In this document: one piece after another, positions 16,063 to 25,210 of the stretch
Numbering within the stretch: the stretch's first letter is position 1
Layout of the letters: every line of letters starts with the position of its first letter
From: Actinomycetales bacterium
GTDB lineage: Bacteria; Actinomycetota; Actinomycetes; Actinomycetales; CAWJMD01
NCBI GenBank assembly: GCA_047974565.1
Contig: JBKECN010000055.1
Location: 19,839-83,838 of the forward strand
Length of the DNA: 64,000 bases
Reading direction: 5' to 3'
Translations under genes and position numbers: made by a program
Notes under the pieces: generated by a model
Told to the model about the DNA's origin: nothing
The model's input: the letters and a program-made list of their open reading frames with translations, nothing else
The model's database searches: none

Positions 16063-16302
16063 AACGGTCCCTTCGTCCGCCTATGAGATGTGCCTGGATG
16101 GGCACGTTCGTGGTCACCCTAACCGGCGCAGCGGGAACGGTGCGTTTCTCTGGTGTCGGGGTTGTGGATGACGCCGACGTCGGACCGGCGAATTCCTCGG
16201 CTCACAACGGCCCGTTCGGGCATTTCTCCACGGCCGCAGGTGAAATCGGCCTCGTCGACTCCGAGAAATATCAGCCGTAGGGACTATTAATGACTCAAAT
16301 CA

Positions 16303-16370
16303 TCAACCCTGGGGACTACTCGGTATCAACCTCAGGGATTATCCCGGCGAGCCAAATTCAACCCTTGGGA
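16303..16370. promoter_or_regulatory. three direct copies of a 13-mer TCAACC(C)YNNGGGA in an unusually AT-rich divergent intergenic region
   Basis: TCAACCCTGGGGA at 16303-16315, TCAACCTCAGGGA at 16326-16338 and TCAACCCTTGGGA at 16358-16370. Each contains a CCC-N-GGG mini-palindrome. The region lies between the opu-like operon and the SDR gene. Confidence 0.45.
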
Positions 16371-16484
16371 GCACTCATTGGAGTGTCGCCCAGCCCACCG
16401 TCTTCCAGAGGTGGGCGATCAGGGTGGACCCGTACTGTCTGTCCGTGCAGGGGTCCGTCACGGGTCAAGACAGCGGGAGGCGAT

Positions 16485-17399
16485 GTGTACGACATTCCGG
16501 ACCAGCGGGACCGGCGAATCGTGGTGACCGGGGCCAACAGCGGGACCGGCCTGGAGGCCACTCGCCGCCTGGCGCGCGCCGGTGCCCAGATCGTGATGGC
16601 GGTGCGCAGCCTGGACAAGGGCGAGGCGGCTTGCGAGCGGATCCGCCGGGAGATTCCCGGGGCCAGGCTCGAGGTGCGGCGTCTCGACTTGGCCGATCTG
16701 ACTCAGGTGCGGGACTTCTGCGAGGCGCTGGCGCGGGTGGGTGAACCCGTGCACGCGCTGGTCAACAACGCCGGGGTGATGGCTCCGCCGGACCGGATGA
16801 TCACCCGCGACGGTCACGAACTGCAATGGGCGACGAACTTCCTCGGCCCGTTCGCGCTCACCAACCTGCTTCTGCCGGTATTGCTGGCGGCCGATCGTCC
16901 GCGGGTGGTGACCATGTCCAGTTCGGCCGCTGCGCTCGGCCGGATCGATTTCGGCGACCTGGACGCCGAGCGGCGGTACGGCGGGGCCCGCGCATACGCC
17001 CAGTCCAAGCTGGCGGATCTGCTCCTGGCGCTCCGGTTGGCCAGGGTCGCGCACGAGCGCGGCTGGCCCCTGCTCAGCCTGGCCGCCCACCCGGGTTACA
17101 CCCGCACGAACCTGCAGCAGACCGGTCCCCGCCTTGGGCGGGGCCGGGCGACGATCGCCACGCGACTGCTCGATGTGGGCTGGCGGGGACAGGACGTGCG
17201 GGTCGGGGCCGAACCCCTGCTCTACGCGATCGCAGACCCTGGCGCGGTCAACGGGGGCTACTACGGACCCAGCGGTCGGTGGGAGCTGACCGGGCCGACG
17301 GCCAGGGTGCGACCGCCCCGCAGCGCCAACGCTCCCAGCTTGGCCGACTCCCTGTGGGCGGTGGCCGCCGACCTGACCGGAACCGACCTTCCGGCCTGA
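16485..17399 (+). CDS. short-chain dehydrogenase/reductase (SDR) family oxidoreductase
   Basis: The ORF is 16290-17399. The GTG at 16485 has GGGAGG 5 nt upstream. Rossmann motif VVTGANSGTGLE and catalytic YAQSKLA are present. The upstream part of the ORF has low GC3 and contains the 13-mer repeats. Confidence 0.85.
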   Translation: MYDIPDQRDRRIVVTGANSGTGLEATRRLARAGAQIVMAVRSLDKGEAACERIRREIPGARLEVRRLDLADLTQVRDFCEALARVGEPVHALVNNAGVMAPPDRMITRDGHELQWATNFLGPFALTNLLLPVLLAADRPRVVTMSSSAAALGRIDFGDLDAERRYGGARAYAQSKLADLLLALRLARVAHERGWPLLSLAAHPGYTRTNLQQTGPRLGRGRATIATRLLDVGWRGQDVRVGAEPLLYAIADPGAVNGGYYGPSGRWELTGPTARVRPPRSANAPSLADSLWAVAADLTGTDLPA

Positions 17400-17508: not shown

Positions 17509-18186
17509 GTGGCCAGAGCATCAGGGGTACCCGGATCGCGGCTCGGGGCGCGATGTGCCCGAGCCGACGCAGCGGACACCGTCTCGTCCCTTCCCCGGCC
17601 CGTGTGCCTGCTCGCCGTCTCCAGCCTGTCTGGCCCGCACCTGGTGACGGTGACCTCGGTCAGCGTGGCCGCGGTGGACCCGGTGCTGGTGACCGTCGCG
17701 CTCGGCTCGCAGAGCCGGATGAACGGCCTCATCGCAGCCACGGGAGCCTTCGCGCTGGGTGTGCTCGCCGCTGAACAACGGGAGCTGGCCGAACGCTTCG
17801 CCCGGCCGGGACGCGCGCCGGACCTGGCGCAACTGGACGGCCTGCGCTGGCACTCGACCCCGTACTCGAACTCACCCCTGCCTCAGGCCCTCGTTGCCTG
17901 GCTGGACTGCGAACTGGTCGCCCGCAACGCGGCACCCGGCGTATCGGTGATCGTCGGCCAGGCCCGAGCGGTGAGCGGGGCCGGCCGGGGAACGGGGCGG
18001 CCGCTGCTACGGCTGCGCGGGGAGTATCTGCCGGCATCGGCTCCCGTCCGCTCGTCGAACCACCCGCAGCGTCGTGACTCGACGACGCCGGGCCTGCACG
18101 TGGTCACCGGCGGTGCCGGCGACCGAGACAACCGTTGGAGGGAGGTGAAAAGCCATGAAGAAGATCAGCGTGCGCAAGGTCGGTGA
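17509..18186 (+). CDS. flavin reductase-like (FMN-binding split-barrel) protein with a low-complexity C-terminal tail
   Basis: 225-aa ORF. The core (LVTVTSVSVAAVDPVLVTVALG...AFALGVLAAEQRELAERFARPG...) resembles NAD(P)H-flavin reductase domains. The last ~55 aa look non-domain and overlap the small ORF at 18155. Confidence 0.6.
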   Translation: MARASGVPGSRLGARCARADAADTVSSLPRPVCLLAVSSLSGPHLVTVTSVSVAAVDPVLVTVALGSQSRMNGLIAATGAFALGVLAAEQRELAERFARPGRAPDLAQLDGLRWHSTPYSNSPLPQALVAWLDCELVARNAAPGVSVIVGQARAVSGAGRGTGRPLLRLRGEYLPASAPVRSSNHPQRRDSTTPGLHVVTGGAGDRDNRWREVKSHEEDQRAQGR

Positions 18187-18259
18187 GGTGCGCCTCACCG
18201 CCCGGGCCTGTTACTGCTACTGCTGCTGTTGCTGCGCAGGAAGCGTGCTGGCCCCGTGA
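18155..18259 (+). CDS. 34-aa poly-cysteine small ORF: candidate RiPP/metallophore precursor peptide (or Cys-sensing leader peptide)
   Basis: ATG at 18155 is preceded by GGAGGGAGGTGA (18137-18148). It translates to MKKISVRKVGEVRLTARACYCYCCCCCAGSVLAP with stop TGA at 18257-18259. 28 of 33 sense codons end in G/C, like real genes here. It is absent from the ORF track only because it is shorter than 60 aa. Confidence 0.65.
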   Translation: MKKISVRKVGEVRLTARACYCYCCCCCAGSVLAP

Positions 18260-18265
18260 CCCCTC

Positions 18266-18298
18266 GGGTGGCGGCGGGCCGACTTGCCGCCGCCACCC
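18266..18298 (+). terminator. perfect 12-bp GC stem-loop (GGGTGGCGGCGG-N9-CCGCCGCCACCC) 7 nt after the small ORF stop
   Basis: Read directly from the sequence. There is no U-tract, so it would be a partial terminator, processing/stabilising hairpin, or attenuator element. Confidence 0.55.
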
Positions 18299-18324: not shown

Positions 18325-19596
18325 ATGGACTCCTCGTTGAGATTTCACCCGCTCACCTACCTCCACGACGGCGACGACGTGGTCGTCGGACGGCGGGACG
18401 TGGATGTCTACGTCGCGCTCCCACCCGAAGGCGCCGAACTGCTGCGCCGACTCGAGGGCGGTACTCGTCCGGAGGTGGCCGCGCAGTGGTTCATCCAGAC
18501 CTACGGGGAGAGCGTCGACATGGTCGACTTCATCGAGGCCATGACCGACGCCGGTTTCGTCGTGGGCGACTCGCAGGGTCACCCGGAGAACGGCTCGGTC
18601 CTGGTTGCCGGGACTGGCTCGGCCCGGCAGGCAGGTGCCGCCGGCGACCCCGCCGTGGTACCGCAGGTGCGCTGGCGTCGACTGGCCTCGGCGCTGTTCA
18701 GCACCCCCGCCTGGATCGGGTACGGGGCACTGGTGATCGCAGCGGTGCTGGCCTGCATCGACTCGCCCTCGCTCATACCGGACCACTCGGATGTCTTCTT
18801 CGTGCCATCGCTGGTGGCCATCGAGGTGATCCTGATGGTCCTGACGATTCCGTTGACGTTGGTACACGAGCTCTCTCACGTCCTGGCCGGTCGCCGGCTC
18901 GGGCTGCGCAGCCGAGTCCGGCTGGCAAACCGCTTCTACTTCCTGGTCTTCGAGACGGTCATGGACGGCCTGGTGAGCGTGCCGCGCCGGCAGCGATACC
19001 TTCCGATGCTTGCCGGGCTGCTGGCCGACATCCTCGTGCTGGCCGGTTTGATCTGCCTGGCCTGGCTGTTGCGTGGCCCGGCCCAGACCCTGCCCGGGGC
19101 CGCGCTGGGGTCCGGCCTGGCCCTGGCGCTGGCCTTCACCACGTTGCCCAGGATGGCCTGGCAGGGGTACTTCTTCCTTCGCACGGACGGCTACTACCTG
19201 GTGGCCACGGTCACCGGTTGCCAGAACCTGCACGAGGCGGCCTGGTGGCGGGTCCGTGGCTGGGCGTCGAGGCACACCGGCAGGCGCATCCCGCCCCCCG
19301 ATGCGCGCTCAGATCAATTCAGTGCCAGGGACCTTCAGGTATCGCGCTGGTATGCCCCGCTGCTGCTCGGCGGCTACCTGCTCGCGCTCATCACCCTGTT
19401 CGTCGTCGTCCTGCCGCTCGCCTGGACCTTCTTCTCCCTGGCGTTCACCCGGGTCGGTGCCGGGCCGTCCGCAGGATCGGCCGGCTTCGTCGATGCCGCC
19501 GTGGTGCTGGCCATCACCGCCGGTCAGCTCCTGGCGGCCGGGGTGCTGGCATTGCGGGGCCGGCGCCGGCGAGACAGGGCCGGGACCAACGGCTGA
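18325..19596 (+). CDS. fusion protein: N-terminal PqqD/RRE-like peptide-binding domain plus multi-pass membrane HExxH metalloprotease (M50/YydH-like)
   Basis: The ORF is 18229-19596. The ATG at 18325 has GGAAGG 8 nt upstream. Residues ~5-80 (VYVALPPEGAELLRRLEGGTRPEVAAQWFIQTYGESVDMVDFIEAMTDAGFV) look PqqD-like. HELSH is at nt 18865-18879 inside a TM helix, with several further TM segments and an FFLRTDGYY motif. Confidence 0.7.
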   Translation: MDSSLRFHPLTYLHDGDDVVVGRRDVDVYVALPPEGAELLRRLEGGTRPEVAAQWFIQTYGESVDMVDFIEAMTDAGFVVGDSQGHPENGSVLVAGTGSARQAGAAGDPAVVPQVRWRRLASALFSTPAWIGYGALVIAAVLACIDSPSLIPDHSDVFFVPSLVAIEVILMVLTIPLTLVHELSHVLAGRRLGLRSRVRLANRFYFLVFETVMDGLVSVPRRQRYLPMLAGLLADILVLAGLICLAWLLRGPAQTLPGAALGSGLALALAFTTLPRMAWQGYFFLRTDGYYLVATVTGCQNLHEAAWWRVRGWASRHTGRRIPPPDARSDQFSARDLQVSRWYAPLLLGGYLLALITLFVVVLPLAWTFFSLAFTRVGAGPSAGSAGFVDAAVVLAITAGQLLAAGVLALRGRRRRDRAGTNG

Positions 19597-19758: not shown

Positions 19759-21606
19759 GTGTCAACTCTCACCGTCACCGCGCACCGCAACGATCATGGC
19801 CCCTTCACCGCCCCGGGCAACATCCTGCGGGCGCTGCGCGTCGACCTGCTGCGCGATCACCGTGACCTCCTCCAGGCGCACGATGTCGAGGTGCTTTCGG
19901 CGGCTCCGGAGTACGCGGCCGACCTGGCCAACCTGCGCCCGACGCAGACCTCGTCGATCGATCCCCGAGCGCGGACCCGCTACTACCCGCCCGCGTGGAT
20001 CACCCGGATCTGCCACGGCCTGGTCGATCTCATGCTGGTGCTGGCCGAGCGTGGCGTCCTGCGGACGATCGAGTTCACCCACCTGGCGAACGCGGACCCG
20101 TCCGACACCGAGTTCGTCGCCGTCCTCGCTCGTCGCAGCGCGGGACGGATCCTGGTGCGCGAGGTAGCCGCGCAGGACCCGCCGCCGGCACCGGATCTGG
20201 CCACCTACTACGTTGAAACAGACTGTGTCAGTGACGATCCCGAGGTGTTGTCGGCCTACGTCGAGCTTGAGGAGGCCGTCCGACAGGCCCTGCACGGCAA
20301 GCGGATGCGCCAGATCCGCGAGGCCATCGCCGGGGGATGCACCAGCCTGCGTCGGTGGACCCTGGCCATGCATGCCGAGCGGTCTGGCGACCCGCAGCAG
20401 GCGGTGAGCGCTCTGACCGAGGCGATTGAGGCGTGTGTTCTCGAGGGGTTCTACGACGCCGTCGTCGAGCTGGGGAGCAGGCTCCTGCCGCTCCTGGATC
20501 CGGCGAGCCAGCCGGATGAGCGGTGGCTGGTGATCGCCAAGGTGACTCTGGCGCAAAGTGCCCTGGGTCGCCTGGAGGACGCCGAGGCCGCCTATGACGA
20601 GGCGTGCGCCGCCACCACGCACCCCAGCACGCACCTGCAGAGCTACTACGGGCGAGCCATGCTGCTGACCCGCTTCGCCGAGCCGAGCGAGCGCGACCAT
20701 CGCCGCGCCGAAGCCCTGGTCAACACGGCGATCACCATCGCCTCGTTGCTGCCGGACGACGCACGTCGTGAGTTCAACACGACCTTCAACGAGAACGGGC
20801 TCGCCCTGGTCGAGATGCACCTGGGGAATCTGCACGAGTCGCTGCGCCTGGTGGAGACCGGCATCGCCCGGCTGGACCAGGCCACCGAGCATGACCGGGA
20901 CCTCCAGCATCGATGGGTTCTGGAGCACAACCGAGCCCAACTGCTCACCGCACTGGCCCGCCCGCACGAGGCTCTGGAGTGCTATGCCGAGCTGCTCCAG
21001 GTGGATCCGCACCACAGCGAGTATCACCTCGACCATGCCGGGGTGCTTCGGGCCGTGGGCCGGCTGGAGGAGGCCGAAAGCGAACTGGGCGAGGCGATCC
21101 GGTGCAGTCCGCCATACCCGGAGGCGGTGTACAACCGCGCCGATCTACGTGCCTCCTGCGGCGACCTGGCGGGAGCTGTGGCCGATCTTCGCCGAGTGCT
21201 CGAGCTCGACCCGGCCTTCCCGAATGCCTGCGCCAACCTCGCCGGCCTGCTCCTGGAAGAGGGTCAGGCGCGTCTCGCCCGGGAGGTGGCTGCGAACGGA
21301 TTGCGGGCGGACCCGGCGGACGTCGCATTGCGCACCGTGTTGGCCCAGGCCGAGCATGAACTCGGCGATCTCGACGCGGCAGTGAGCGGATACCGCGCAG
21401 CCCTCGAGATCGACCCGCACTTCGTGCCGGCACTGGCCGGACGAGCTGTCGCGGCCTTCGAGGTCGGCACCGCAGACAGCCTGCACACGGCCGTGGAGTG
21501 TCTGGAGCGAGCGGTCAGGCTCAGCGACGACCCCGACCTGGTCGAGAACCTGGCTCTGGCCGTATCCCGTCAGGAGGTCCTGGGTAAGACCGCCTCGGGA
21601 GACTGA
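19759..21606 (+). CDS. TPR-repeat protein with an uncharacterised ~190-aa N-terminal domain
   Basis: 615-aa ORF. The GTG at 19759 has AAGGAG 7 nt upstream. The C-terminal ~400 aa are tandem TPR-like helices (for example AEAAYDEA, LEEAESELGEAIRCSPPYPEAVYNRADL, YRAALEIDPHFVPAL). Confidence 0.75.
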   Translation: MSTLTVTAHRNDHGPFTAPGNILRALRVDLLRDHRDLLQAHDVEVLSAAPEYAADLANLRPTQTSSIDPRARTRYYPPAWITRICHGLVDLMLVLAERGVLRTIEFTHLANADPSDTEFVAVLARRSAGRILVREVAAQDPPPAPDLATYYVETDCVSDDPEVLSAYVELEEAVRQALHGKRMRQIREAIAGGCTSLRRWTLAMHAERSGDPQQAVSALTEAIEACVLEGFYDAVVELGSRLLPLLDPASQPDERWLVIAKVTLAQSALGRLEDAEAAYDEACAATTHPSTHLQSYYGRAMLLTRFAEPSERDHRRAEALVNTAITIASLLPDDARREFNTTFNENGLALVEMHLGNLHESLRLVETGIARLDQATEHDRDLQHRWVLEHNRAQLLTALARPHEALECYAELLQVDPHHSEYHLDHAGVLRAVGRLEEAESELGEAIRCSPPYPEAVYNRADLRASCGDLAGAVADLRRVLELDPAFPNACANLAGLLLEEGQARLAREVAANGLRADPADVALRTVLAQAEHELGDLDAAVSGYRAALEIDPHFVPALAGRAVAAFEVGTADSLHTAVECLERAVRLSDDPDLVENLALAVSRQEVLGKTASGD

Positions 21607-21800: not shown

Positions 21801-22463
21801 CTAGTCCAGCGGCCGCAACTCGTCGGCGTAGGAGACCGACACCCGGCGCAGCATGCCGCTGGGGCTCACGGCGTACTGGCCCATCCGCCACAGCGGGGGC
21901 GAGTAGGCGTGAATCGACACCGAGTTCGGCTCCAGGCCGGTGAGCCGGTGAATGTGCTCGGGGCCGAAGGAGAAGACCTGCCCGGCCTCCACCCGGGTGG
22001 CGAGTTCCGGTTGCCCGATGGCCAGGTTGTGCTCGATCAGGGCGCCCTCGGCGACGGCCACCGCGCCGGAGGAGATGTCGTGGTCGTGCCAGCCGGTGTC
22101 GTTGGCCGGAGTCCAGCAGAGCACCCACACGTCGATGTGGGAGTCGCGGTACAGGCTCACGTAGTGGCGGTGGTCATCGGTGTAGTCGACGTACTGGTGC
22201 CACAGCTCGGGCCGGGCCGCCACACTCGCGGCCAGCACCCGCAACTCCTGCGAATCCAGGTCGGTGCCGGTAACCGCCTCGAATCCGGCGAAGTCCGGAT
22301 CGTCCGCGTCGGAGAGCGGCTCGGCTCGCTGCGCCGGCACTCCCACGGTGGATGGCCCGGCAACCAGTTGGGCGGCCTCCTCCAACGGGATGGGCTCGGG
22401 GGCCGGTGCCAGCTCCGGTAGAGCCGGGGCGATGGCAGGGTGCGAGGTGAGGCCGTCTGTCAC
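21801..22463 (-). CDS. cysteine dioxygenase type I-like (thiol dioxygenase, cupin) protein
   Basis: The ORF is 21801-22640. The GTG at 22463 has AAAGGAG 7 nt upstream and overlaps the upstream stop (GTGA). Cupin core: DVWVLCWTPANDTGWHDHDISSGAVAV...GPEHIHRL. Confidence 0.75.
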   Translation of the reverse strand: MTDGLTSHPAIAPALPELAPAPEPIPLEEAAQLVAGPSTVGVPAQRAEPLSDADDPDFAGFEAVTGTDLDSQELRVLAASVAARPELWHQYVDYTDDHRHYVSLYRDSHIDVWVLCWTPANDTGWHDHDISSGAVAVAEGALIEHNLAIGQPELATRVEAGQVFSFGPEHIHRLTGLEPNSVSIHAYSPPLWRMGQYAVSPSGMLRRVSVSYADELRPLD

Positions 22464-23629
22464 GGCGAGACTCCTTTCGGTTGTGCCGAGGCCGGCGGGG
22501 CCTGGGTCGGCGTGCGGTCCCCGGGGAGCGGGTCCGGCGGGTGGCCGAGGGCTCGATGGCCCTCGGGGTGGGCAAGGTGGACGGGGTATGCAGTCACGTC
22601 CGTCGTGGATGCCGTACGACCGTCCTGGTGGGTGGGCCATCCGGGACGAAACCCGGCATCCGGCCGGGTGGCGACCGGTGCGCCACGACGGTGGCCGGGC
22701 ACGTGGGGATGAGGCAGAGCGTGCCCTCCCAGCAGCCGGCGAGGGTTGGTGACGCTGATCGCGTGCCAGGCTGCCTCGCCCAGGTGCGGATCCACCGGGT
22801 GGGCGTAGGGCCGGTCGCTGCCCAGCACCACCGTGTCGATGCCGAGGGCCCGCACCAAGGCATCCACGCCCTGCCGGCGATAGGACGAGGTCTCCACGAA
22901 AACCAGGGGATCGACCACGAAGGGTTGTCCGCTGCGTACCGCGAAGCGCTCGTGGTGGGCCGGTGCCAGCCCGGCTCCGGCCGCGAAACAGATTCGTAAC
23001 TCAGGCAGTTCGACCCGGCCTGCGGCTCGGAAGGCCCACCAGGCGGCCTGCATCTGGGTGGGGTAGTCGACCATCGCGGGCCACCACGAGGGCACCGCCG
23101 GGGCTCGGTGCTCCGGGGTTCGGTGTGCCGGCCCGGGGTGGACCAGCACCGGGCGTCCGAGTTCCTCGCAGAGGGCGAGGGTGGCGAGCACTCCGGTGAG
23201 CGCCGCCGGGTCGCGCATCCAGGTGGCCGAGATCTGCAGCCCGACCACCTCTGGACGCTGCAGCCGGTCACGAAGGGCATCGAGGTCTGGCTCGAGGTGG
23301 GTGGTGGCGGCCCAGTAGCCGTAGCGATGGGCTGCGTCGGCGACGCCGCCGTGCCAGGCGTCGAGCAACTCGGCGGCCTCCTCCGGCGGCAGTTCCTCGA
23401 TGCCCAACGGCGTCGACAGCGAGAGCAGGATCAGGTCGATGTCCGGGTCCAGGCGAGACCTGACCGCCGGGTCGTGATCGGTGGGCCTGATCTCGAAGGG
23501 AGCTTCGTACTCGGTGTGCAGGGTCCAGCCGTCCAACCGCGGTGGGCGGTTCCGGCGTCGCAGGGCGTCGATGAGCGCCTCGGGCCACAGATGTTGATGG
23601 ACGTCCACCCGCAGCACTGACCGCTGCAT
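22460..23629 (-). CDS. amidohydrolase-2 (ACMSD-like metal-dependent hydrolase/decarboxylase) family protein with an odd ~90-aa C-terminal tail
   Basis: The ORF is 22460-23791. The ATG at 23629 has GGGAGGTGAGG upstream. The N-terminal motif VDVHQHLWP is typical of the family. The tail after ...NPRRLLGG is Pro/His/Arg-rich with lower GC3. Confidence 0.75.
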   Translation of the reverse strand: MQRSVLRVDVHQHLWPEALIDALRRRNRPPRLDGWTLHTEYEAPFEIRPTDHDPAVRSRLDPDIDLILLSLSTPLGIEELPPEEAAELLDAWHGGVADAAHRYGYWAATTHLEPDLDALRDRLQRPEVVGLQISATWMRDPAALTGVLATLALCEELGRPVLVHPGPAHRTPEHRAPAVPSWWPAMVDYPTQMQAAWWAFRAAGRVELPELRICFAAGAGLAPAHHERFAVRSGQPFVVDPLVFVETSSYRRQGVDALVRALGIDTVVLGSDRPYAHPVDPHLGEAAWHAISVTNPRRLLGGHALPHPHVPGHRRGAPVATRPDAGFRPGWPTHQDGRTASTTDVTAYPVHLAHPEGHRALGHPPDPLPGDRTPTQAPPASAQPKGVSP

Positions 23630-23680
23630 CGACCTCACCTCCCTGTCTGCTCTTGTGACCGCGCTGATGCGCGGTGTACC

Positions 23681-23736
23681 TGGTGCGTCCGGTGGACGCG
23701 GTGTTGCTTGGTGCGTCCGGTGGACGCGGTGCTGCT
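23681..23736. promoter_or_regulatory. two tandem 28-bp repeats, each containing the palindrome GCGTCC-GGT-GGACGC
   Basis: TGGTGCGTCCGGTGGACGCGGTGTTGCT at 23681-23708 and TGGTGCGTCCGGTGGACGCGGTGCTGCT at 23709-23736 (27/28 identical). They lie 52-107 nt upstream of the amidohydrolase start. Confidence 0.5.
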
Positions 23737-24062
23737 CAACTCGCGGCTCGAGCCGTGCTGCTCGCCCGGCGCTGCGTCCGCCAACGGGCACTGCACGAGT
23801 CGGGCCCTCACCCGAGACGGCGATCGCGCCTCGCCGATGGGCCGTGGCGAACCGATCGGTACGGCGCGCACTCCGGCCGACGTCGGCGACGGGGCGCTCT
23901 CAGCGTGTCGTCGCGTGCGCGGCTCTCGACGACCGGCACTACGACCTGCCGCCGGGCGATGCTGCCACCGGAATCGGTGCCGCCGCAGGGTCGGGGTGGG
24001 TCCAAGCCGCTGCCCGGCCGCCGAGGCCGCCTGCTGTCCGCGGGCTCGCGAGACCATCTCAG

Positions 24063-24196: not shown

Positions 24197-25210
24197 GTGG
24201 CTCAACCACGCCGCGTGACTCTGCGCGACATCTCCGCCGACACCGGACTCTCGGTGGCGGCGGTTTCGTACGCGCTGCGTGGGCTGCACGTCCCCGAGGA
24301 GACGCAGATTCGCGTCCGCGAGTCTGCTGAGCGACTCGGCTACAAGGTCAACCCGATCGCCCGCGCCTTGGCATCCGGCCGCTCCGACCAGGTGGGGGTG
24401 ATGTGTCGCTCCCTGGCGGATCTGTGGCAGCAGGGTACCTCCGCCAGGCTTGGCCGGGCACTGCTGGCCACCGGTCGGCAGGCTCTCATCGTCGACTCCT
24501 GTGACGATCCCGATCTGGAGGAAAGACTGGCTCGCCGGCTGCTCGACCAGCGGGTCGACGCCCTGCTCACCTTCCCGGTGAATCCGGCGGCCGAGCACTG
24601 GGCGCAGGCCGCGCAGGAGACCGTGTTGGTCTCCATCGGGGATGCCCTGCCCGGCGCGGCCACGTATGCCGAGATCGTCTTCGACAATCAGCGAGCGGTT
24701 CGCTCGGCCCTCGACGGTCTGGTCGGTCTTGGACATTCGCGAATCGCGGTGCTCACCCACATCGACAACTCGACTCCGGACCGGCCGATCGAACTCGTCG
24801 TGCAGCAGATGGCCGAGGATTCGCACGCCGATATTCGGCTGCACACCTGCATGAGCGACCTCGAAGGGTCGGCCACCGTGGTCACGCGGCTTCTTCAGGG
24901 CGCGGACCCCCCTACCGCTTTCTGCTGTCTGGCGGACTCGATGGCCTACGGCGTCTACTCGGCCGCCCGGGCCCTGGGCCTGTCCATCCCCGAGGACATC
25001 TCCGTGGTTGGCAACGACGACAACCCGATCTCGACGCTGCTCACGCCCCCGCTGTGGAGCTACGAGTGGCCTGTCTCGGAGGTGGTGAGCGCGATCGTCG
25101 ACGCCACCACCGAGGGCGTGGTGGACGAGATCCGCCGGGGCCGTACGGTGATCTCGGCCCGCGAGCATCGCCGAGCATCGGCGGCCGCGCCCCCCGGCGC
25201 GGATTCCTGA
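24197..25210 (+). CDS. LacI-family transcriptional regulator
   Basis: 337-aa ORF with an N-terminal HTH (VTLRDISADTGLSVAAVSYALRG) and a periplasmic-binding-protein-like effector domain. Confidence 0.9.
   Translation: MAQPRRVTLRDISADTGLSVAAVSYALRGLHVPEETQIRVRESAERLGYKVNPIARALASGRSDQVGVMCRSLADLWQQGTSARLGRALLATGRQALIVDSCDDPDLEERLARRLLDQRVDALLTFPVNPAAEHWAQAAQETVLVSIGDALPGAATYAEIVFDNQRAVRSALDGLVGLGHSRIAVLTHIDNSTPDRPIELVVQQMAEDSHADIRLHTCMSDLEGSATVVTRLLQGADPPTAFCCLADSMAYGVYSAARALGLSIPEDISVVGNDDNPISTLLTPPLWSYEWPVSEVVSAIVDATTEGVVDEIRRGRTVISAREHRRASAAAPPGADS

What the first reader, a model, noticed from the sequence alone, without database searches (positions are those of the whole stretch)
18325..19596. 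PqqD/RRE-like domain fused to a polytopic HExxH membrane metalloprotease
Residues ~5-80 have the winged-helix-like PqqD pattern (ALPPEGAELLRRLEGGTRPEVAAQWFIQTYGESVDMVDFIEAMTDAGFV). In RiPP pathways this domain is the leader-peptide recognition element. The rest of the protein is a multi-pass membrane domain with HELSH (nt 18865-18879) embedded in a helix, like site-2-protease/M50 enzymes. An M50 protease, YydH, matures the Bacillus YydF epipeptide. A single polypeptide that both recognises a leader and cleaves it at the membrane would couple proteolysis to export. I am not aware of this fusion having been characterised.
Basis: partly seen in the sequence, partly recalled or inferred. Interest (0 to 1): 0.78.

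Follow-up and report, generated by a model that had tools for sequence, protein, structure and literature searches.

The report
Leader-binding membrane protease peptide cassette
This gene encodes a membrane zinc protease with a built-in peptide-docking domain, and it sits in a widespread, unannotated three-gene actinobacterial cassette (small Cys/Tyr peptide, protease, TPR protein); the fusion design itself was already published for the daptide peptides.

Summary
ORF 18325-19596 encodes a 423-aa protein with a cytoplasmic N-terminal RRE/PqqD-fold domain and a six-helix membrane domain carrying HELSH. The AF2 model (pLDDT 89) matches lasso B1 leader-binding RREs. The family profile aligns end to end (hhalign 99.8%, E 1.8e-27) to a protein that passes Pfam Peptidase_M50.

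The 34-aa ORF upstream (18155-18259) is a real precursor gene. A near-invariant leader, MKKIxVRKxGxVRLT, followed by a variable Cys/Tyr core, lies upstream on the same strand in 74 of 81 loci under a strict motif. Three more loci carry near-variants and three lack upstream DNA. There are 1-7 copies per locus, and invariant residues show only synonymous changes.

A cytoplasmic TPR protein with a degenerate AAA_16-like N-domain (19759-21606) follows in 79 of 80 loci. No known modifying enzyme or exporter is conserved.

RRE domains fused N-terminally to an intramembrane site-2 protease were the discovery hook for daptides (MpaP, Ren et al. 2023). This family is not a daptide system, and I found no published description of its leader or its TPR partner.

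Most likely it is an RRE-guided leader peptidase of a new peptide family. Verdict: new variant of a known kind, moderate interest.

The parts
18155..18259 (+). Precursor peptide gene (34 aa): MKKISVRKVGEVRLTARA | CYCYCCCCCAGSVLAP. The conserved leader is aa 1-18 (nt 18155-18208). The variable core, with 7 Cys and 2 Tyr, is aa 19-34 (nt 18209-18256).
   Evidence: ORF. GGAGG lies 9-14 nt upstream. The same leader is found upstream on the same strand in 74/81 loci, with near-variants in 3 more. Invariant residues show only synonymous codon changes, for example L14 1079 synonymous vs 0 non-synonymous. Gene callers do not call it.
18325..19596 (+). RRE-fused S2P/M50-clan intramembrane metalloprotease (423 aa), the putative leader peptidase.
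   Evidence: AF2 pLDDT 89.3, pTM 0.83. hhalign of the family profile to a Pfam-passing Peptidase_M50 protein gives 99.8%, E 1.8e-27, 356 columns. 1,814 related clusters.
18346..18564 (+). RRE / PqqD-fold domain (aa 8-80): three beta-strands then three helices, predicted cytoplasmic.
   Evidence: DSSP on the model: E11-15, E18-23, E28-32, H34-44, H49-60, H66-75. Foldseek: TbiB1 5v1u/5v1v TM 0.67-0.69, lasso B1 6jx3 TM 0.73, prob 1.0. PqqD sub-threshold in 16/60 members and lasso_PqqD_Strm in 10/60. It is as conserved as the catalytic core, 0.69 mean top-residue frequency.
18565..18660 (+). Unconserved, disordered linker (aa 81-112) between the RRE and the membrane domain.
   Evidence: pLDDT below 50 for aa 88-105. 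Mean conservation 0.12.
18865..18879 (+). HELSH zinc-binding/catalytic motif (H181, E182, H185) at the cytoplasmic end of TM2. The extended motif is HELSHVLAGRRLGLRS.
   Evidence: Invariant in 60/60 members. Aligns to RseP HEFGHFWVARRCGVRV. Lies in helix 163-191. Topology.
18907..18966 (+). Beta-hairpin (aa 195-214, invariant E210 and T211) directly after the HExxH helix. It is the candidate equivalent of the S2P membrane-reentrant beta-sheet that binds substrate by strand addition.
   Evidence: DSSP E195-203 and E206-214. Invariant columns. S2P MRE-beta feature described in PMC11864173. The equivalence is inferred, not superposed.
19027..19029 (+). D235 in the invariant LAGxLAD motif (TM3). 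It aligns to Asn in the M50-passing Nocardia homologue and is a candidate equivalent of the S2P 'Asn clamp'.
   Evidence: Invariant A230, G231, D235. hhalign pairs LAGLLAD with LAGIATN. Asn clamp on TM3 per PMC11864173. Inference.
19186..19188 (+). D288 in the invariant RTDxY motif, in the cytoplasmic loop after TM4. It is the candidate third zinc ligand, equivalent to the Asp of the S2P LDG motif.
   Evidence: Invariant T287, D288, Y290. Conserved as RTDIY in the Nocardia M50 homologue. Location.
19759..21606 (+). Obligatory partner: a cytoplasmic 615-aa protein with a small alpha/beta N-domain (a degenerate AAA_16/STAND-like NTPase lacking the Walker-A Lys) followed by a long TPR superhelix.
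   Evidence: Present in 79/80 loci by tblastn. Directly downstream on the same strand, median gap 43 nt. AF2 pLDDT 94.3. Foldseek returns generic TPR superhelices such as OGT. AAA_16 sub-threshold in 4/10 N-domains, best E 1.2e-4. TPR Pfam hits.
17509..18186 (+). Flavin reductase-like gene (PF01613), an accessory member of the cassette in about a quarter of loci. Its 3' end overlaps the peptide ORF start by 32 nt.
   Evidence: Pfam E 4e-21. Adjacent in 19 loci and on the same strand in 18 of them, either just upstream of the peptide (poly-Cys subfamily, including the window) or just after the TPR gene.
18266..18298 (+). Perfect 12-bp GC-rich hairpin between the peptide gene and the protease gene. 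It may be a transcript attenuator or stabiliser, but it is not statistically distinguishable from background at this GC content.
   Evidence: strand folding: stem GGGUGGCGGCGG/CCGCCGCCACCC, z = -1.62, 13/200 shuffles fold as well.

Best explanation
The 423-aa protein is a leader peptidase built from two fused modules. A cytoplasmic RRE (PqqD-fold) domain recognises the leader, and a site-2-protease/M50-clan intramembrane zinc protease does the cutting. Its substrate is the small precursor encoded just upstream.

Proposed mechanism:
1. The near-invariant leader MKKIxVRKxGxVRLT docks on the RRE, probably as an added beta-strand as in other RREs.
2. The flexible 30-residue linker lets the RRE deliver the downstream segment to the active site at the cytoplasmic face of the membrane. 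That site comprises HExxH on TM2, the beta-hairpin, and D288.
3. The peptide is cut near the conserved small-residue triplet (S/A-A-A, which is A-R-A in the window).
4. This releases a short Cys- and Tyr-containing core, here CYCYCCCCCAGSVLAP.

The invariably co-encoded TPR protein is a cytoplasmic peptide-binding partner (chaperone, scaffold or receptor), not a recognisable enzyme.

Shown here: the domain folds, homology to M50, the conservation and coding status of the precursor, gene linkage, and predicted topology.

Inferred: leader binding, proteolysis and its site, the role of the TPR protein, and the fate of the product.
For: - RRE fold: the AF2 model has pLDDT 89 and a beta3-alpha3 N-domain. 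The top Foldseek PDB hits are exclusively leader-binding RREs, with TM 0.67-0.73 and prob 1.0.
- Recurrent weak family hits: PqqD in 16/60 members, lasso_PqqD in 10/60, Peptidase_M50 in 26/60 (best E 9e-5, covering profile positions 9-181 of 221), plus DUF3267, YydH/LiaK, daptide_HExxH and RseP.
- Homology to M50: the family profile aligns end to end to Nocardia WP_331722898.1 (hhalign 99.8%, E 1.8e-27, 356 columns). That protein passes the Peptidase_M50 gathering score (34.1 vs 27.2 bits) and is annotated by PGAP as a site-2 protease family protein.
- Active-site motif: HExxH-x4-RR-x-G-x-R matches RseP. H181, E182, H185 and D288 are invariant.
- S2P-like order of elements: HExxH helix, then beta-hairpin, then a TM helix with AG...D/N, compared with the S2P features in PMC11864173.
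- Topology: N-in, with the RRE and the active site cytoplasmic.
- Precursor: the leader is present in 74/81 loci (about 77 of the 78 with upstream DNA), in 1-7 tandem copies, always upstream on the same strand. Leader positions are near-invariant while cores vary. All 65 unique cores contain Cys and 64/65 contain Tyr. Invariant residues show purely synonymous variation.
- Portability: the same MKKIxVRK-type leader accompanies distant RRE-S2P paralogues that have a different partner (ThiF), including in a Priestia plasmid. This indicates the leader goes with the RRE-protease module.
- Precedent: MpaP in daptides is an RRE-S2P fusion proposed to remove the leader. EpeP, TglG/TmoG and TmcP are M50/S2P-clan RiPP peptidases.
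Against: - The window protein itself passes neither the Pfam PqqD nor the Peptidase_M50 threshold, and it scores only 21 bits against the 300-bit daptide_HExxH cut-off.
- The third zinc ligand and the beta-hairpin equivalence are inferred from sequence, not from model geometry.
- No cleavage, leader binding or product has been observed.
- Classical S2P substrates are transmembrane helices, whereas this peptide is short and not hydrophobic.
- No exporter or known modifying enzyme is conserved, so the product's destination and any modification are unknown.
Confidence: 0.75

Rival explanations
1. This is a signalling cassette rather than a natural-product cassette. The RRE-protease still cleaves the precursor, but the released short peptide is a cell-cell or intracellular signal. 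The STAND-like TPR protein is its receptor, analogous to RRNPP quorum sensing in Firmicutes, where the S2P Eep processes pheromones and TPR proteins such as Rap, which has no DNA-binding domain, bind them.
For: - The TPR partner is present in 79/80 loci.
- It has no recognisable catalytic fold, only a TPR superhelix.
- Its N-domain resembles a degenerate AAA_16/STAND NTPase typical of signal-transduction proteins.
- No modifying enzyme or dedicated exporter is conserved.
- SARP-type regulators flank 20 loci.
- Core diversification could reflect pherotypes.
- The comparison with RRNPP, Eep and Rap rests on my own background knowledge, not on a tool result.
Against: - The TPR protein has no DNA-binding or other output domain.
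- Up to 7 tandem, diverging precursor copies and poly-Cys cores are more typical of bacteriocin or RiPP arrays.
- No oligopeptide permease or exporter is linked.
- There is no evidence of peptide binding by the TPR protein.
Confidence: 0.2
2. The TPR/AAA_16-like protein is a new kind of peptide-modifying enzyme or an essential modification scaffold, for example acting on the universally conserved Cys and Tyr, sometimes with the linked flavin reductase. That would make this a new RiPP class with the RRE-protease as its leader peptidase.
For: - The TPR protein occupies the position held by an enzyme (ThiF) in the sister cassette that shares the leader type.
- It has invariant His residues and near-invariant Cys residues (H179, H205, H292, C226, C283) in the helical region.
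- Cys is present in 65/65 cores and Tyr in 64/65, with Tyr fixed at position 22 in 55/65.
- A flavin reductase is tightly linked in 19 loci.
Against: - No catalytic fold or family was detected by Pfam, NCBIfam, PDB sequence search or Foldseek.
- The Walker-A lysine is absent.
- The flavin reductase is missing from about 75% of loci.
- The conserved residues could be structural or involved in peptide binding.
Confidence: 0.15
3. The membrane HExxH domain is not a leader peptidase. It acts on a membrane-protein substrate in regulated intramembrane proteolysis, as classical S2Ps do, or it is a non-proteolytic metalloenzyme. In that case the small peptide would be a regulator or inhibitor that binds the RRE.
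For: Classical S2P substrates are transmembrane segments. The membrane domain has no structural match to a solved S2P.
Against: - No anti-sigma or sigma pair, or other membrane substrate gene, is conserved nearby.
- The precursor has classic leader/core architecture with tandem diversified copies.
- Closely analogous M50/S2P-clan enzymes act on soluble or small RiPP precursors: MpaP, EpeP, TglG and TmcP.
Confidence: 0.05

Closest known systems
MpaP/DapP, the RRE-fused intramembrane site-2 protease of daptide gene clusters (Ren et al. 2023, Nat Commun 14:1624)
   Same: Same architecture: an RRE at the N-terminus of an M50/S2P-type membrane protease, encoded next to short precursors with a conserved leader, and proposed to remove the leader in an RRE-dependent way. 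There is a weak direct sequence relationship to NF041824 (E 1.2e-4, aa 116-321).
   Different: - It is not an equivalog: 21 bits against a 300-bit cut-off.
- No DapB, DapC, DapD or DapM genes are nearby.
- The leader is MKKIxVRKxGxVRLT, not ELExMEAP.
- Cores end mostly in Ala; only 1 of 73 ends in Thr, whereas daptides have an invariant C-terminal Thr.
- The obligatory partner is a TPR protein.
EpeP/YydH (epipeptide) and TglG/TmoG (pearlin) M50 proteases; TmcP (TMcin, DUF3267)
   Same: These are M50/S2P-clan membrane metalloproteases dedicated to maturing ribosomal peptides. EpeP is also proposed to export its product. There are weak hits to RiPP_HExxH_LiaK (4/60 members) and DUF3267 (4/60).
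   Different: - None of these papers describes an RRE in the enzymes.
- Their clusters contain defined modifying enzymes.
- No such enzymes are found here.
Lasso peptide B1 (RRE) plus B2 (leader peptidase), and fused B proteins
   Same: The RRE of this protein is structurally closest to lasso B1 proteins TbiB1 and 6jx3. Ten of 60 members weakly hit lasso_PqqD_Strm. The logic is the same: an RRE presents the leader to a peptidase.
   Different: The lasso peptidase is a soluble Cys protease, and no lasso cyclase is present. Here the peptidase is a polytopic zinc enzyme.
Canonical site-2 proteases (RseP, SpoIVFB, MjS2P)
   Same: HExxH lies in a TM helix with the extended motif HExxH-x4-(R)R-x-G. 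A beta-hairpin follows the HExxH helix. There is an AG...N/D motif on the next TM helix and a distal invariant Asp. The active site faces the cytoplasm.
   Different: - There is no PDZ or CBS domain; an RRE takes that place.
- The predicted substrate is a short soluble peptide rather than a TM helix.
- Sequence similarity to RseP is limited to the active-site helix.
- No Foldseek hit to a solved S2P.
ThiF-linked RRE-S2P cassettes on Streptomyces, Nocardia and Priestia plasmids (unpublished as far as I could find)
   Same: The RRE-S2P protein is homologous over its full length at 24-31% identity. The leader type is the same, for example MKKIVVRKLATVTVPQLRPGT in three copies in Priestia.
   Different: The partner is a ThiF-family adenylyltransferase, with transporters in Priestia, instead of the TPR protein. 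The cores are very short and lack the Cys/Tyr signature.

Membership tests
RRE / PqqD-like domain (PF05402; RiPP recognition element) | Winged-helix-like fold: a three-stranded antiparallel beta-sheet followed by three helices. | tested here: met
   AF2 DSSP shows E11-15, E18-23, E28-32, H34-44, H49-60, H66-75, with pLDDT 91-98 over most of the domain. Foldseek top hits are TbiB1, lasso B1, ThcOx, TigE, McbB, SkfB and CteB.
RRE / PqqD-like domain (PF05402; RiPP recognition element) | Score above the curated Pfam gathering threshold. | tested here: not met
   13 bits against 23.4 (E 0.14) for the window protein. Hits are sub-threshold in 16/60 members, best E 1e-3.
RRE / PqqD-like domain (PF05402; RiPP recognition element) | Encoded next to a precursor peptide with a conserved leader. 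| tested here: met
   74/81 loci under a strict motif, and about 77 of the 78 loci that have upstream DNA.
RRE / PqqD-like domain (PF05402; RiPP recognition element) | Physical binding of the leader peptide. | not testable with these tools
Peptidase M50 / site-2 protease (MEROPS clan MM) | HExxH inside a transmembrane helix. | tested here: met
   H181, E182 and H185 are invariant. They lie in helix 163-191 and in the hydrophobic segment 157-186.
Peptidase M50 / site-2 protease (MEROPS clan MM) | Sequence homology to PF02163 members. | tested here: met
   Directly, hits are sub-threshold: none for the window protein, 26/60 members, best 22.4 bits against 27.2. Transitively, hhalign gives 99.8% and E 1.8e-27 over 356 columns to a protein scoring 34.1 bits on PF02163.
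Peptidase M50 / site-2 protease (MEROPS clan MM) | A distal Asp (LDG-type motif) as the third zinc ligand. | tested here: inconclusive
   D288 (RTDGY) is invariant and conserved in the M50-passing homologue. Its proximity to the His pair could not be measured.
Peptidase M50 / site-2 protease (MEROPS clan MM) | Membrane-reentrant beta-sheet next to the active site, and a conserved Asn on the following TM helix. | tested here: inconclusive
   A beta-hairpin at 195-214 follows the HExxH helix. D235 aligns to Asn in the Nocardia homologue. The features are as described in PMC11864173. No superposition was done.
Peptidase M50 / site-2 protease (MEROPS clan MM) | Fold similarity to a solved S2P structure. 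| tested here: not met
Daptide biosynthesis protease (NF041824, MpaP/DapP) | Equivalog score, DapB/C/D/M neighbours, and precursors with an invariant C-terminal Thr. | tested here: not met
   21.4 bits against a 300-bit cut-off. No such neighbours among the conserved clusters. Only 1 of 73 cores ends in Thr.
YydH/LiaK epipeptide protease (NF058609) | Family score and a radical-SAM epimerase neighbour. | tested here: not met
   Only 4/60 members give weak hits, best E 0.0097. No radical SAM gene is conserved nearby.
STAND NTPase with TPR sensor (AAA_16 + TPR), for the partner protein | P-loop NTPase domain with an intact Walker A GxxxxGK[ST]. | tested here: not met
   AAA_16 is sub-threshold in 4/10 N-domains. 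The Walker-A position reads RGP[YF]TAAG or HGPFTAPG, with no Lys.
RRNPP-type peptide signalling | A TPR receptor with an output domain, a secreted and re-imported peptide, and peptide-receptor binding. | not testable with these tools
   The TPR domain is present. No HTH domain was detected, no Opp or exporter is linked, and binding is unknown.

The most novel reading that the evidence does not exclude
The three-gene cassette (MKKIxVRKxGxVRLT-leader peptides with Cys/Tyr cores, an RRE-S2P protease, and a degenerate-STAND/TPR protein) is a previously undescribed, widespread actinobacterial peptide system. In it, the TPR protein would do something new. It could be the first TPR-type intracellular peptide receptor paired with an RRE-guided intramembrane protease in Actinomycetota (an RRNPP-like circuit). 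Alternatively it could be a new non-canonical modification or chaperone partner that defines a new RiPP class, for example producing poly-cysteine metal-binding or cross-linked peptides such as CYCYCCCCC.
Probability: 0.3. Interest if true: 0.8.

Novelty: new variant of a known kind. Interest (0 to 1): 0.55.

Why it matters
- The fusion of a leader-recognition domain with a membrane protease is a compact solution to substrate selection by intramembrane proteases, and it is known only from the daptide clusters. This finding shows the same module serves at least two further, undescribed peptide systems: one TPR-linked and one ThiF-linked.
- These systems share a portable leader, MKKIxVRK..., and are very common. 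There are 380 species genomes and more than 1,800 protein clusters, yet the proteins are annotated as 'hypothetical' and the peptide genes are not called.
- This gives genome miners a simple handle (leader motif plus RRE-S2P) for a large set of unexplored short Cys/Tyr peptides, including extreme poly-Cys cores.
- It also offers S2P enzymologists a natural case of exosite-guided cleavage of a soluble substrate.
- It raises the question of what the invariably linked TPR protein does.

Tried and rejected
- Direct sequence search of the PDB, with the family profile and with the member closest to M50, found no S2P.
- hhalign of the profile against E. coli RseP aligned only the 21-residue active-site helix (probability 5.9%). 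It is useful for the motif but not as homology evidence.
- Foldseek against PDB gave RRE hits only; nothing was found for the membrane domain.
- Daptide membership is rejected.
- The window's other neighbours are rejected as parts of the system because none recurs in the 80 related loci. These are the CDO-like gene at 21801-22640 (-), the amidohydrolase-like ORF at 22460-23791 (-), the SDR at 16290-17399 and the LacI-type regulator at 24197-25210. A cysteine-dioxygenase-like gene next to a poly-Cys peptide is tempting, but it looks coincidental.
- The hairpin after the peptide gene is not significant against shuffles (z = -1.6), so I make no attenuator claim.
- Fold search of the TPR partner returned only generic TPR solenoids. 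A PDB sequence search of its N-domain found nothing.
- Literature searches for the leader strings returned nothing. The RRE-Finder paper, the structure-based RRE paper and the LPP paper do not mention this family.
Full report
**1. The observation**

The ORF at 18325-19596 (+) is real and translates to 423 aa. HELSH is aa 181-185, exactly nt 18865-18879. The ATG start is supported by the homologue consensus.

On its own, the protein gives only marginal family hits. PqqD scores E 0.14, 13 bits against a cut-off of 23.4. Peptidase_M50 gives nothing. NCBIfam daptide_HExxH scores E 1.2e-4, 21 bits against a cut-off of 300.

**2. The N-terminal domain is an RRE**

I built an alignment of 60 diverse homologues (A1) from a search that returned more than 300 relatives, nearly all annotated 'hypothetical'. 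It gave an AlphaFold2 model with mean pLDDT 89.3 and pTM 0.83.

Residues 11-75 form three beta-strands followed by three helices. Residues 88-105 are disordered. Foldseek against the PDB returned, as its best hits, only RiPP leader-binding domains. These were lasso B1 proteins TbiB1 (5v1u/5v1v, target TM 0.67-0.69, 25% identity) and 6jx3 (TM 0.73), then the RREs of ThcOx, TigE, McbB, SkfB and CteB.

Across the 60 members, PqqD is hit 16 times and the lasso PqqD chaperone model 10 times, always below threshold. The RRE is as conserved as the catalytic core (0.69 against 0.69 mean top-residue frequency), whereas the linker is not conserved (0.12).

**3. The membrane domain belongs to the site-2-protease/M50 superfamily, as a divergent branch**

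Peptidase_M50 is hit in 26 of 60 members. The best hit is E 9e-5 and spans profile positions 9-181 of 221, which is far more than the HExxH motif. There are scattered hits to DUF3267, YydH/LiaK, daptide_HExxH and RseP.

The decisive link came from plasmid records. Nocardia sp. NBC_00511 WP_331722898.1 is annotated by PGAP as 'site-2 protease family protein' and scores 34.1 bits on PF02163 against a gathering score of 27.2. The A1 profile aligns to it with hhalign probability 99.8% and E 1.8e-27 over 356 columns, from the RRE to the last helix.

The motif evidence:
- The active-site helix reads HELSHVLAGRRLGLRS, against RseP HEFGHFWVARRCGVRV.
- H181, E182, H185, E210, T211, A230, G231, D235, T287, D288 and Y290 are invariant.
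- The predicted order is HExxH helix, then a beta-hairpin (195-214), then a TM helix with LAGxLAD, then RTDxY.
- This order matches published S2P hallmarks: a catalytic TM core, a membrane-reentrant beta-sheet that binds substrate by strand addition, and a conserved Asn on the next TM helix (PMC11864173).
- D235 aligns with Asn in the Nocardia protein, and D288 is conserved there.
- D288 is therefore my candidate for the third zinc ligand. This is an inference, because I could not read the model coordinates.

Hydrophobicity and the positive-inside rule give six TM segments with the N-terminus inside. That places the RRE, the HExxH end of TM2 and D288 on the cytoplasmic side.

**4. The neighbouring small ORF is a genuine, conserved precursor gene**

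In 80 loci from GTDB species genomes (380 relatives in all) plus the window, a strict leader motif is found in 74 of 81 loci. Three more loci have near-variants and three lack upstream DNA. The peptide gene is always upstream on the same strand, 66-1,100 nt away, in 1-7 tandem copies.

Among 65 unique peptides:
- M1, K2, R7, L14 and T15 are invariant.
- K3, I4, K8, G10, V12 and R13 are nearly invariant.
- Position 18 is Ala in 57.
- Position 22 is Tyr in 55.
- All 65 have at least one Cys, and 64 have Tyr.
- Otherwise the cores are highly variable.

The window belongs to a poly-Cys subfamily, CYCY(C/G)CCCC.

At invariant residues the codons differ only synonymously: R7 651 synonymous vs 0 non-synonymous, L14 1079 vs 0, T15 851 vs 0. 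This proves selection at the protein level. Gene callers miss the ORF, and the 423-aa protein carries no Pfam label in the public record.

**5. The cassette**

Clustering of neighbours and tblastn show that the 615-aa TPR protein (19759-21606) follows the protease gene in 79 of 80 loci, with a median gap of 43 nt. Its model (pLDDT 94.3) is a long TPR superhelix that matches only generic TPR structures such as OGT.

It is preceded by a roughly 170-aa alpha/beta domain. That domain weakly matches the Walker-B half of AAA_16 in 4 of 10 homologues (best E 1.2e-4) and lacks the Walker-A lysine. No enzyme fold was detected.

A flavin reductase (17509-18186 in the window) is tightly linked in 19 loci. 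It sits either before the peptide, as here and in the poly-Cys subfamily, or right after the TPR gene. SARP-like regulators flank 20 loci.

The window's CDO-like, amidohydrolase-like, SDR and LacI genes do not recur. The surrounding window is ordinary chromosomal housekeeping DNA at 69% GC. No exporter and no known RiPP-modifying enzyme is conserved.

**6. A wider superfamily with a portable leader**

The exhaustive profile search finds 1,814 clusters at 50% identity (656 at E <= 1e-30), mostly spanning both domains.
- A 36%-identical paralogue on a Streptomyces plasmid has the same peptide-protease-TPR layout, with a Cys-free core: MRKISVRRTEPIKVTSAPFSHQPAIVPV.
- Paralogues at 24-31% identity on Streptomyces, Nocardia and Priestia plasmids are paired with a ThiF-family adenylyltransferase instead.
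- These also have unannotated peptides with the same leader style, for example three copies of MKKIVVRKLATVTVPQLRPGT in Priestia koreensis.

The leader thus travels with the RRE-protease module, while the partner gene changes. This is what one expects if the RRE reads the leader.

**7. Comparison with what is known**

Ren et al. 2023 found the daptides by following 'RRE domains ... [quoted passage not shown] M50/S2P-clan peptidases are also established in other RiPP pathways. These include EpeP (thought to both cleave and export), TglG/TmoG and TmcP.

The present family is nevertheless not a daptide system:
- It fails the equivalog model by a wide margin.
- It lacks all the daptide enzymes.
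- Its leader is different.
- Its cores almost never end in Thr.

I found no paper containing the leader strings. The RRE-Finder paper, the structure-based RRE paper, the LPP paper and the protease review do not mention an RRE-S2P plus TPR cassette.

**8. Verdict**

- The interpretation (RRE plus M50-like protease acting on the adjacent peptide) is well supported by fold, transitive homology and very strong genomic linkage. It is not demonstrated biochemically.
- 'Coupling to export' is speculation, and predicted topology argues for cytoplasmic-side cleavage.
- Novelty is more modest than claimed for the fusion itself. It is real at the level of the system: a large, unannotated family with a new precursor type and an unexplained TPR/STAND-like partner.
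- I rate it a new variant of a known kind, with interest 0.55.
- The most novel reading not excluded is a new signalling or modification role for the TPR partner, defining a new peptide class, at about 0.3 probability.

Noticed in passing
L085:2964-3240 (Priestia koreensis plasmid NZ_CP061869.1); also L082:8199-8255 and L084:5572-5694: There is a sister cassette in which the RRE-S2P homologue is paired with a ThiF-family adenylyltransferase. In Priestia it also has two substrate-binding proteins and an MFS transporter. It carries unannotated small ORFs with the same leader style: three identical copies of MKKIVVRKLATVTVPQLRPGT in Priestia, MEIKVRKVEDVKATGLQV in Streptomyces, and a longer variant in Nocardia. 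This may be a second undescribed peptide system, perhaps involving C-terminal adenylation.
   Followed up: partly
window 21801-22640 (-) and 22460-23791 (-): A cysteine-dioxygenase-type-I-like gene (Pfam CDO_I, E 7e-16) and an overlapping ORF with an amidohydrolase-like 'VDVHQHLWP' start lie just downstream of the poly-Cys peptide cassette on the opposite strand. Neither recurs in the 80 related loci, so the adjacency is probably coincidental.
   Followed up: partly
window 18155-18186: The 3' end of the flavin reductase ORF (17509-18186) overlaps the start of the peptide ORF by 32 nt in a different frame. The Flavin_Reduct domain ends at about residue 173 of 225, so the C-terminal tail may or may not be functional.
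   Followed up: no
window 18266-18298: A perfect 12-bp GC stem with a 9-nt loop lies between the peptide stop codon and the protease start. It is not significant against dinucleotide shuffles (z = -1.6), and no T-run follows it.
   Followed up: yes
L026 (Kitasatospora nipponensis), L023 (Kitasatospora humi), L054 (Phytomonospora sp.): These loci have arrays of 7, 4 and 3 tandem precursor genes with identical leaders and diverging cores (SAAQPLYG...). The pattern resembles multi-precursor RiPP or bacteriocin loci.
   Followed up: partly
cores in L016, L023, L027, L042, L061, L064 and others: One core subfamily ends in Cys followed by three small or aliphatic residues (CVAA, CQAA, CAAV, CGIA), which superficially resembles a CaaX box. 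No prenyltransferase is conserved nearby, so the significance is unknown.
   Followed up: no
L012 (MAG labelled Candidatus Melainabacteria) and L079 (MAG labelled Deltaproteobacteria): Two of the 80 loci come from bins assigned outside Actinomycetota, although their cassettes are typical. L012 carries MKKITVRKAGSVRLTSAAQPLYGGCVAV. This is either mis-binning or horizontal transfer.
   Followed up: no
P0358 (722 aa): One representative carries the RRE-S2P module at residues 335-717 behind an N-terminal extension of about 330 aa. This may be a further fusion, for example with a partner enzyme.
   Followed up: no
window 19759-21606 (TPR partner) and flanking SARP-like genes in 20 related loci: The partner's layout (degenerate AAA_16-like domain plus TPR) resembles the C-terminal two-thirds of AfsR-type large SARP regulators without the DNA-binding part. 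Stand-alone SARP-like genes of about 300 aa often sit nearby. This could hint at a split regulator, but the AfsR comparison comes from my background knowledge and was not tested.
   Followed up: no
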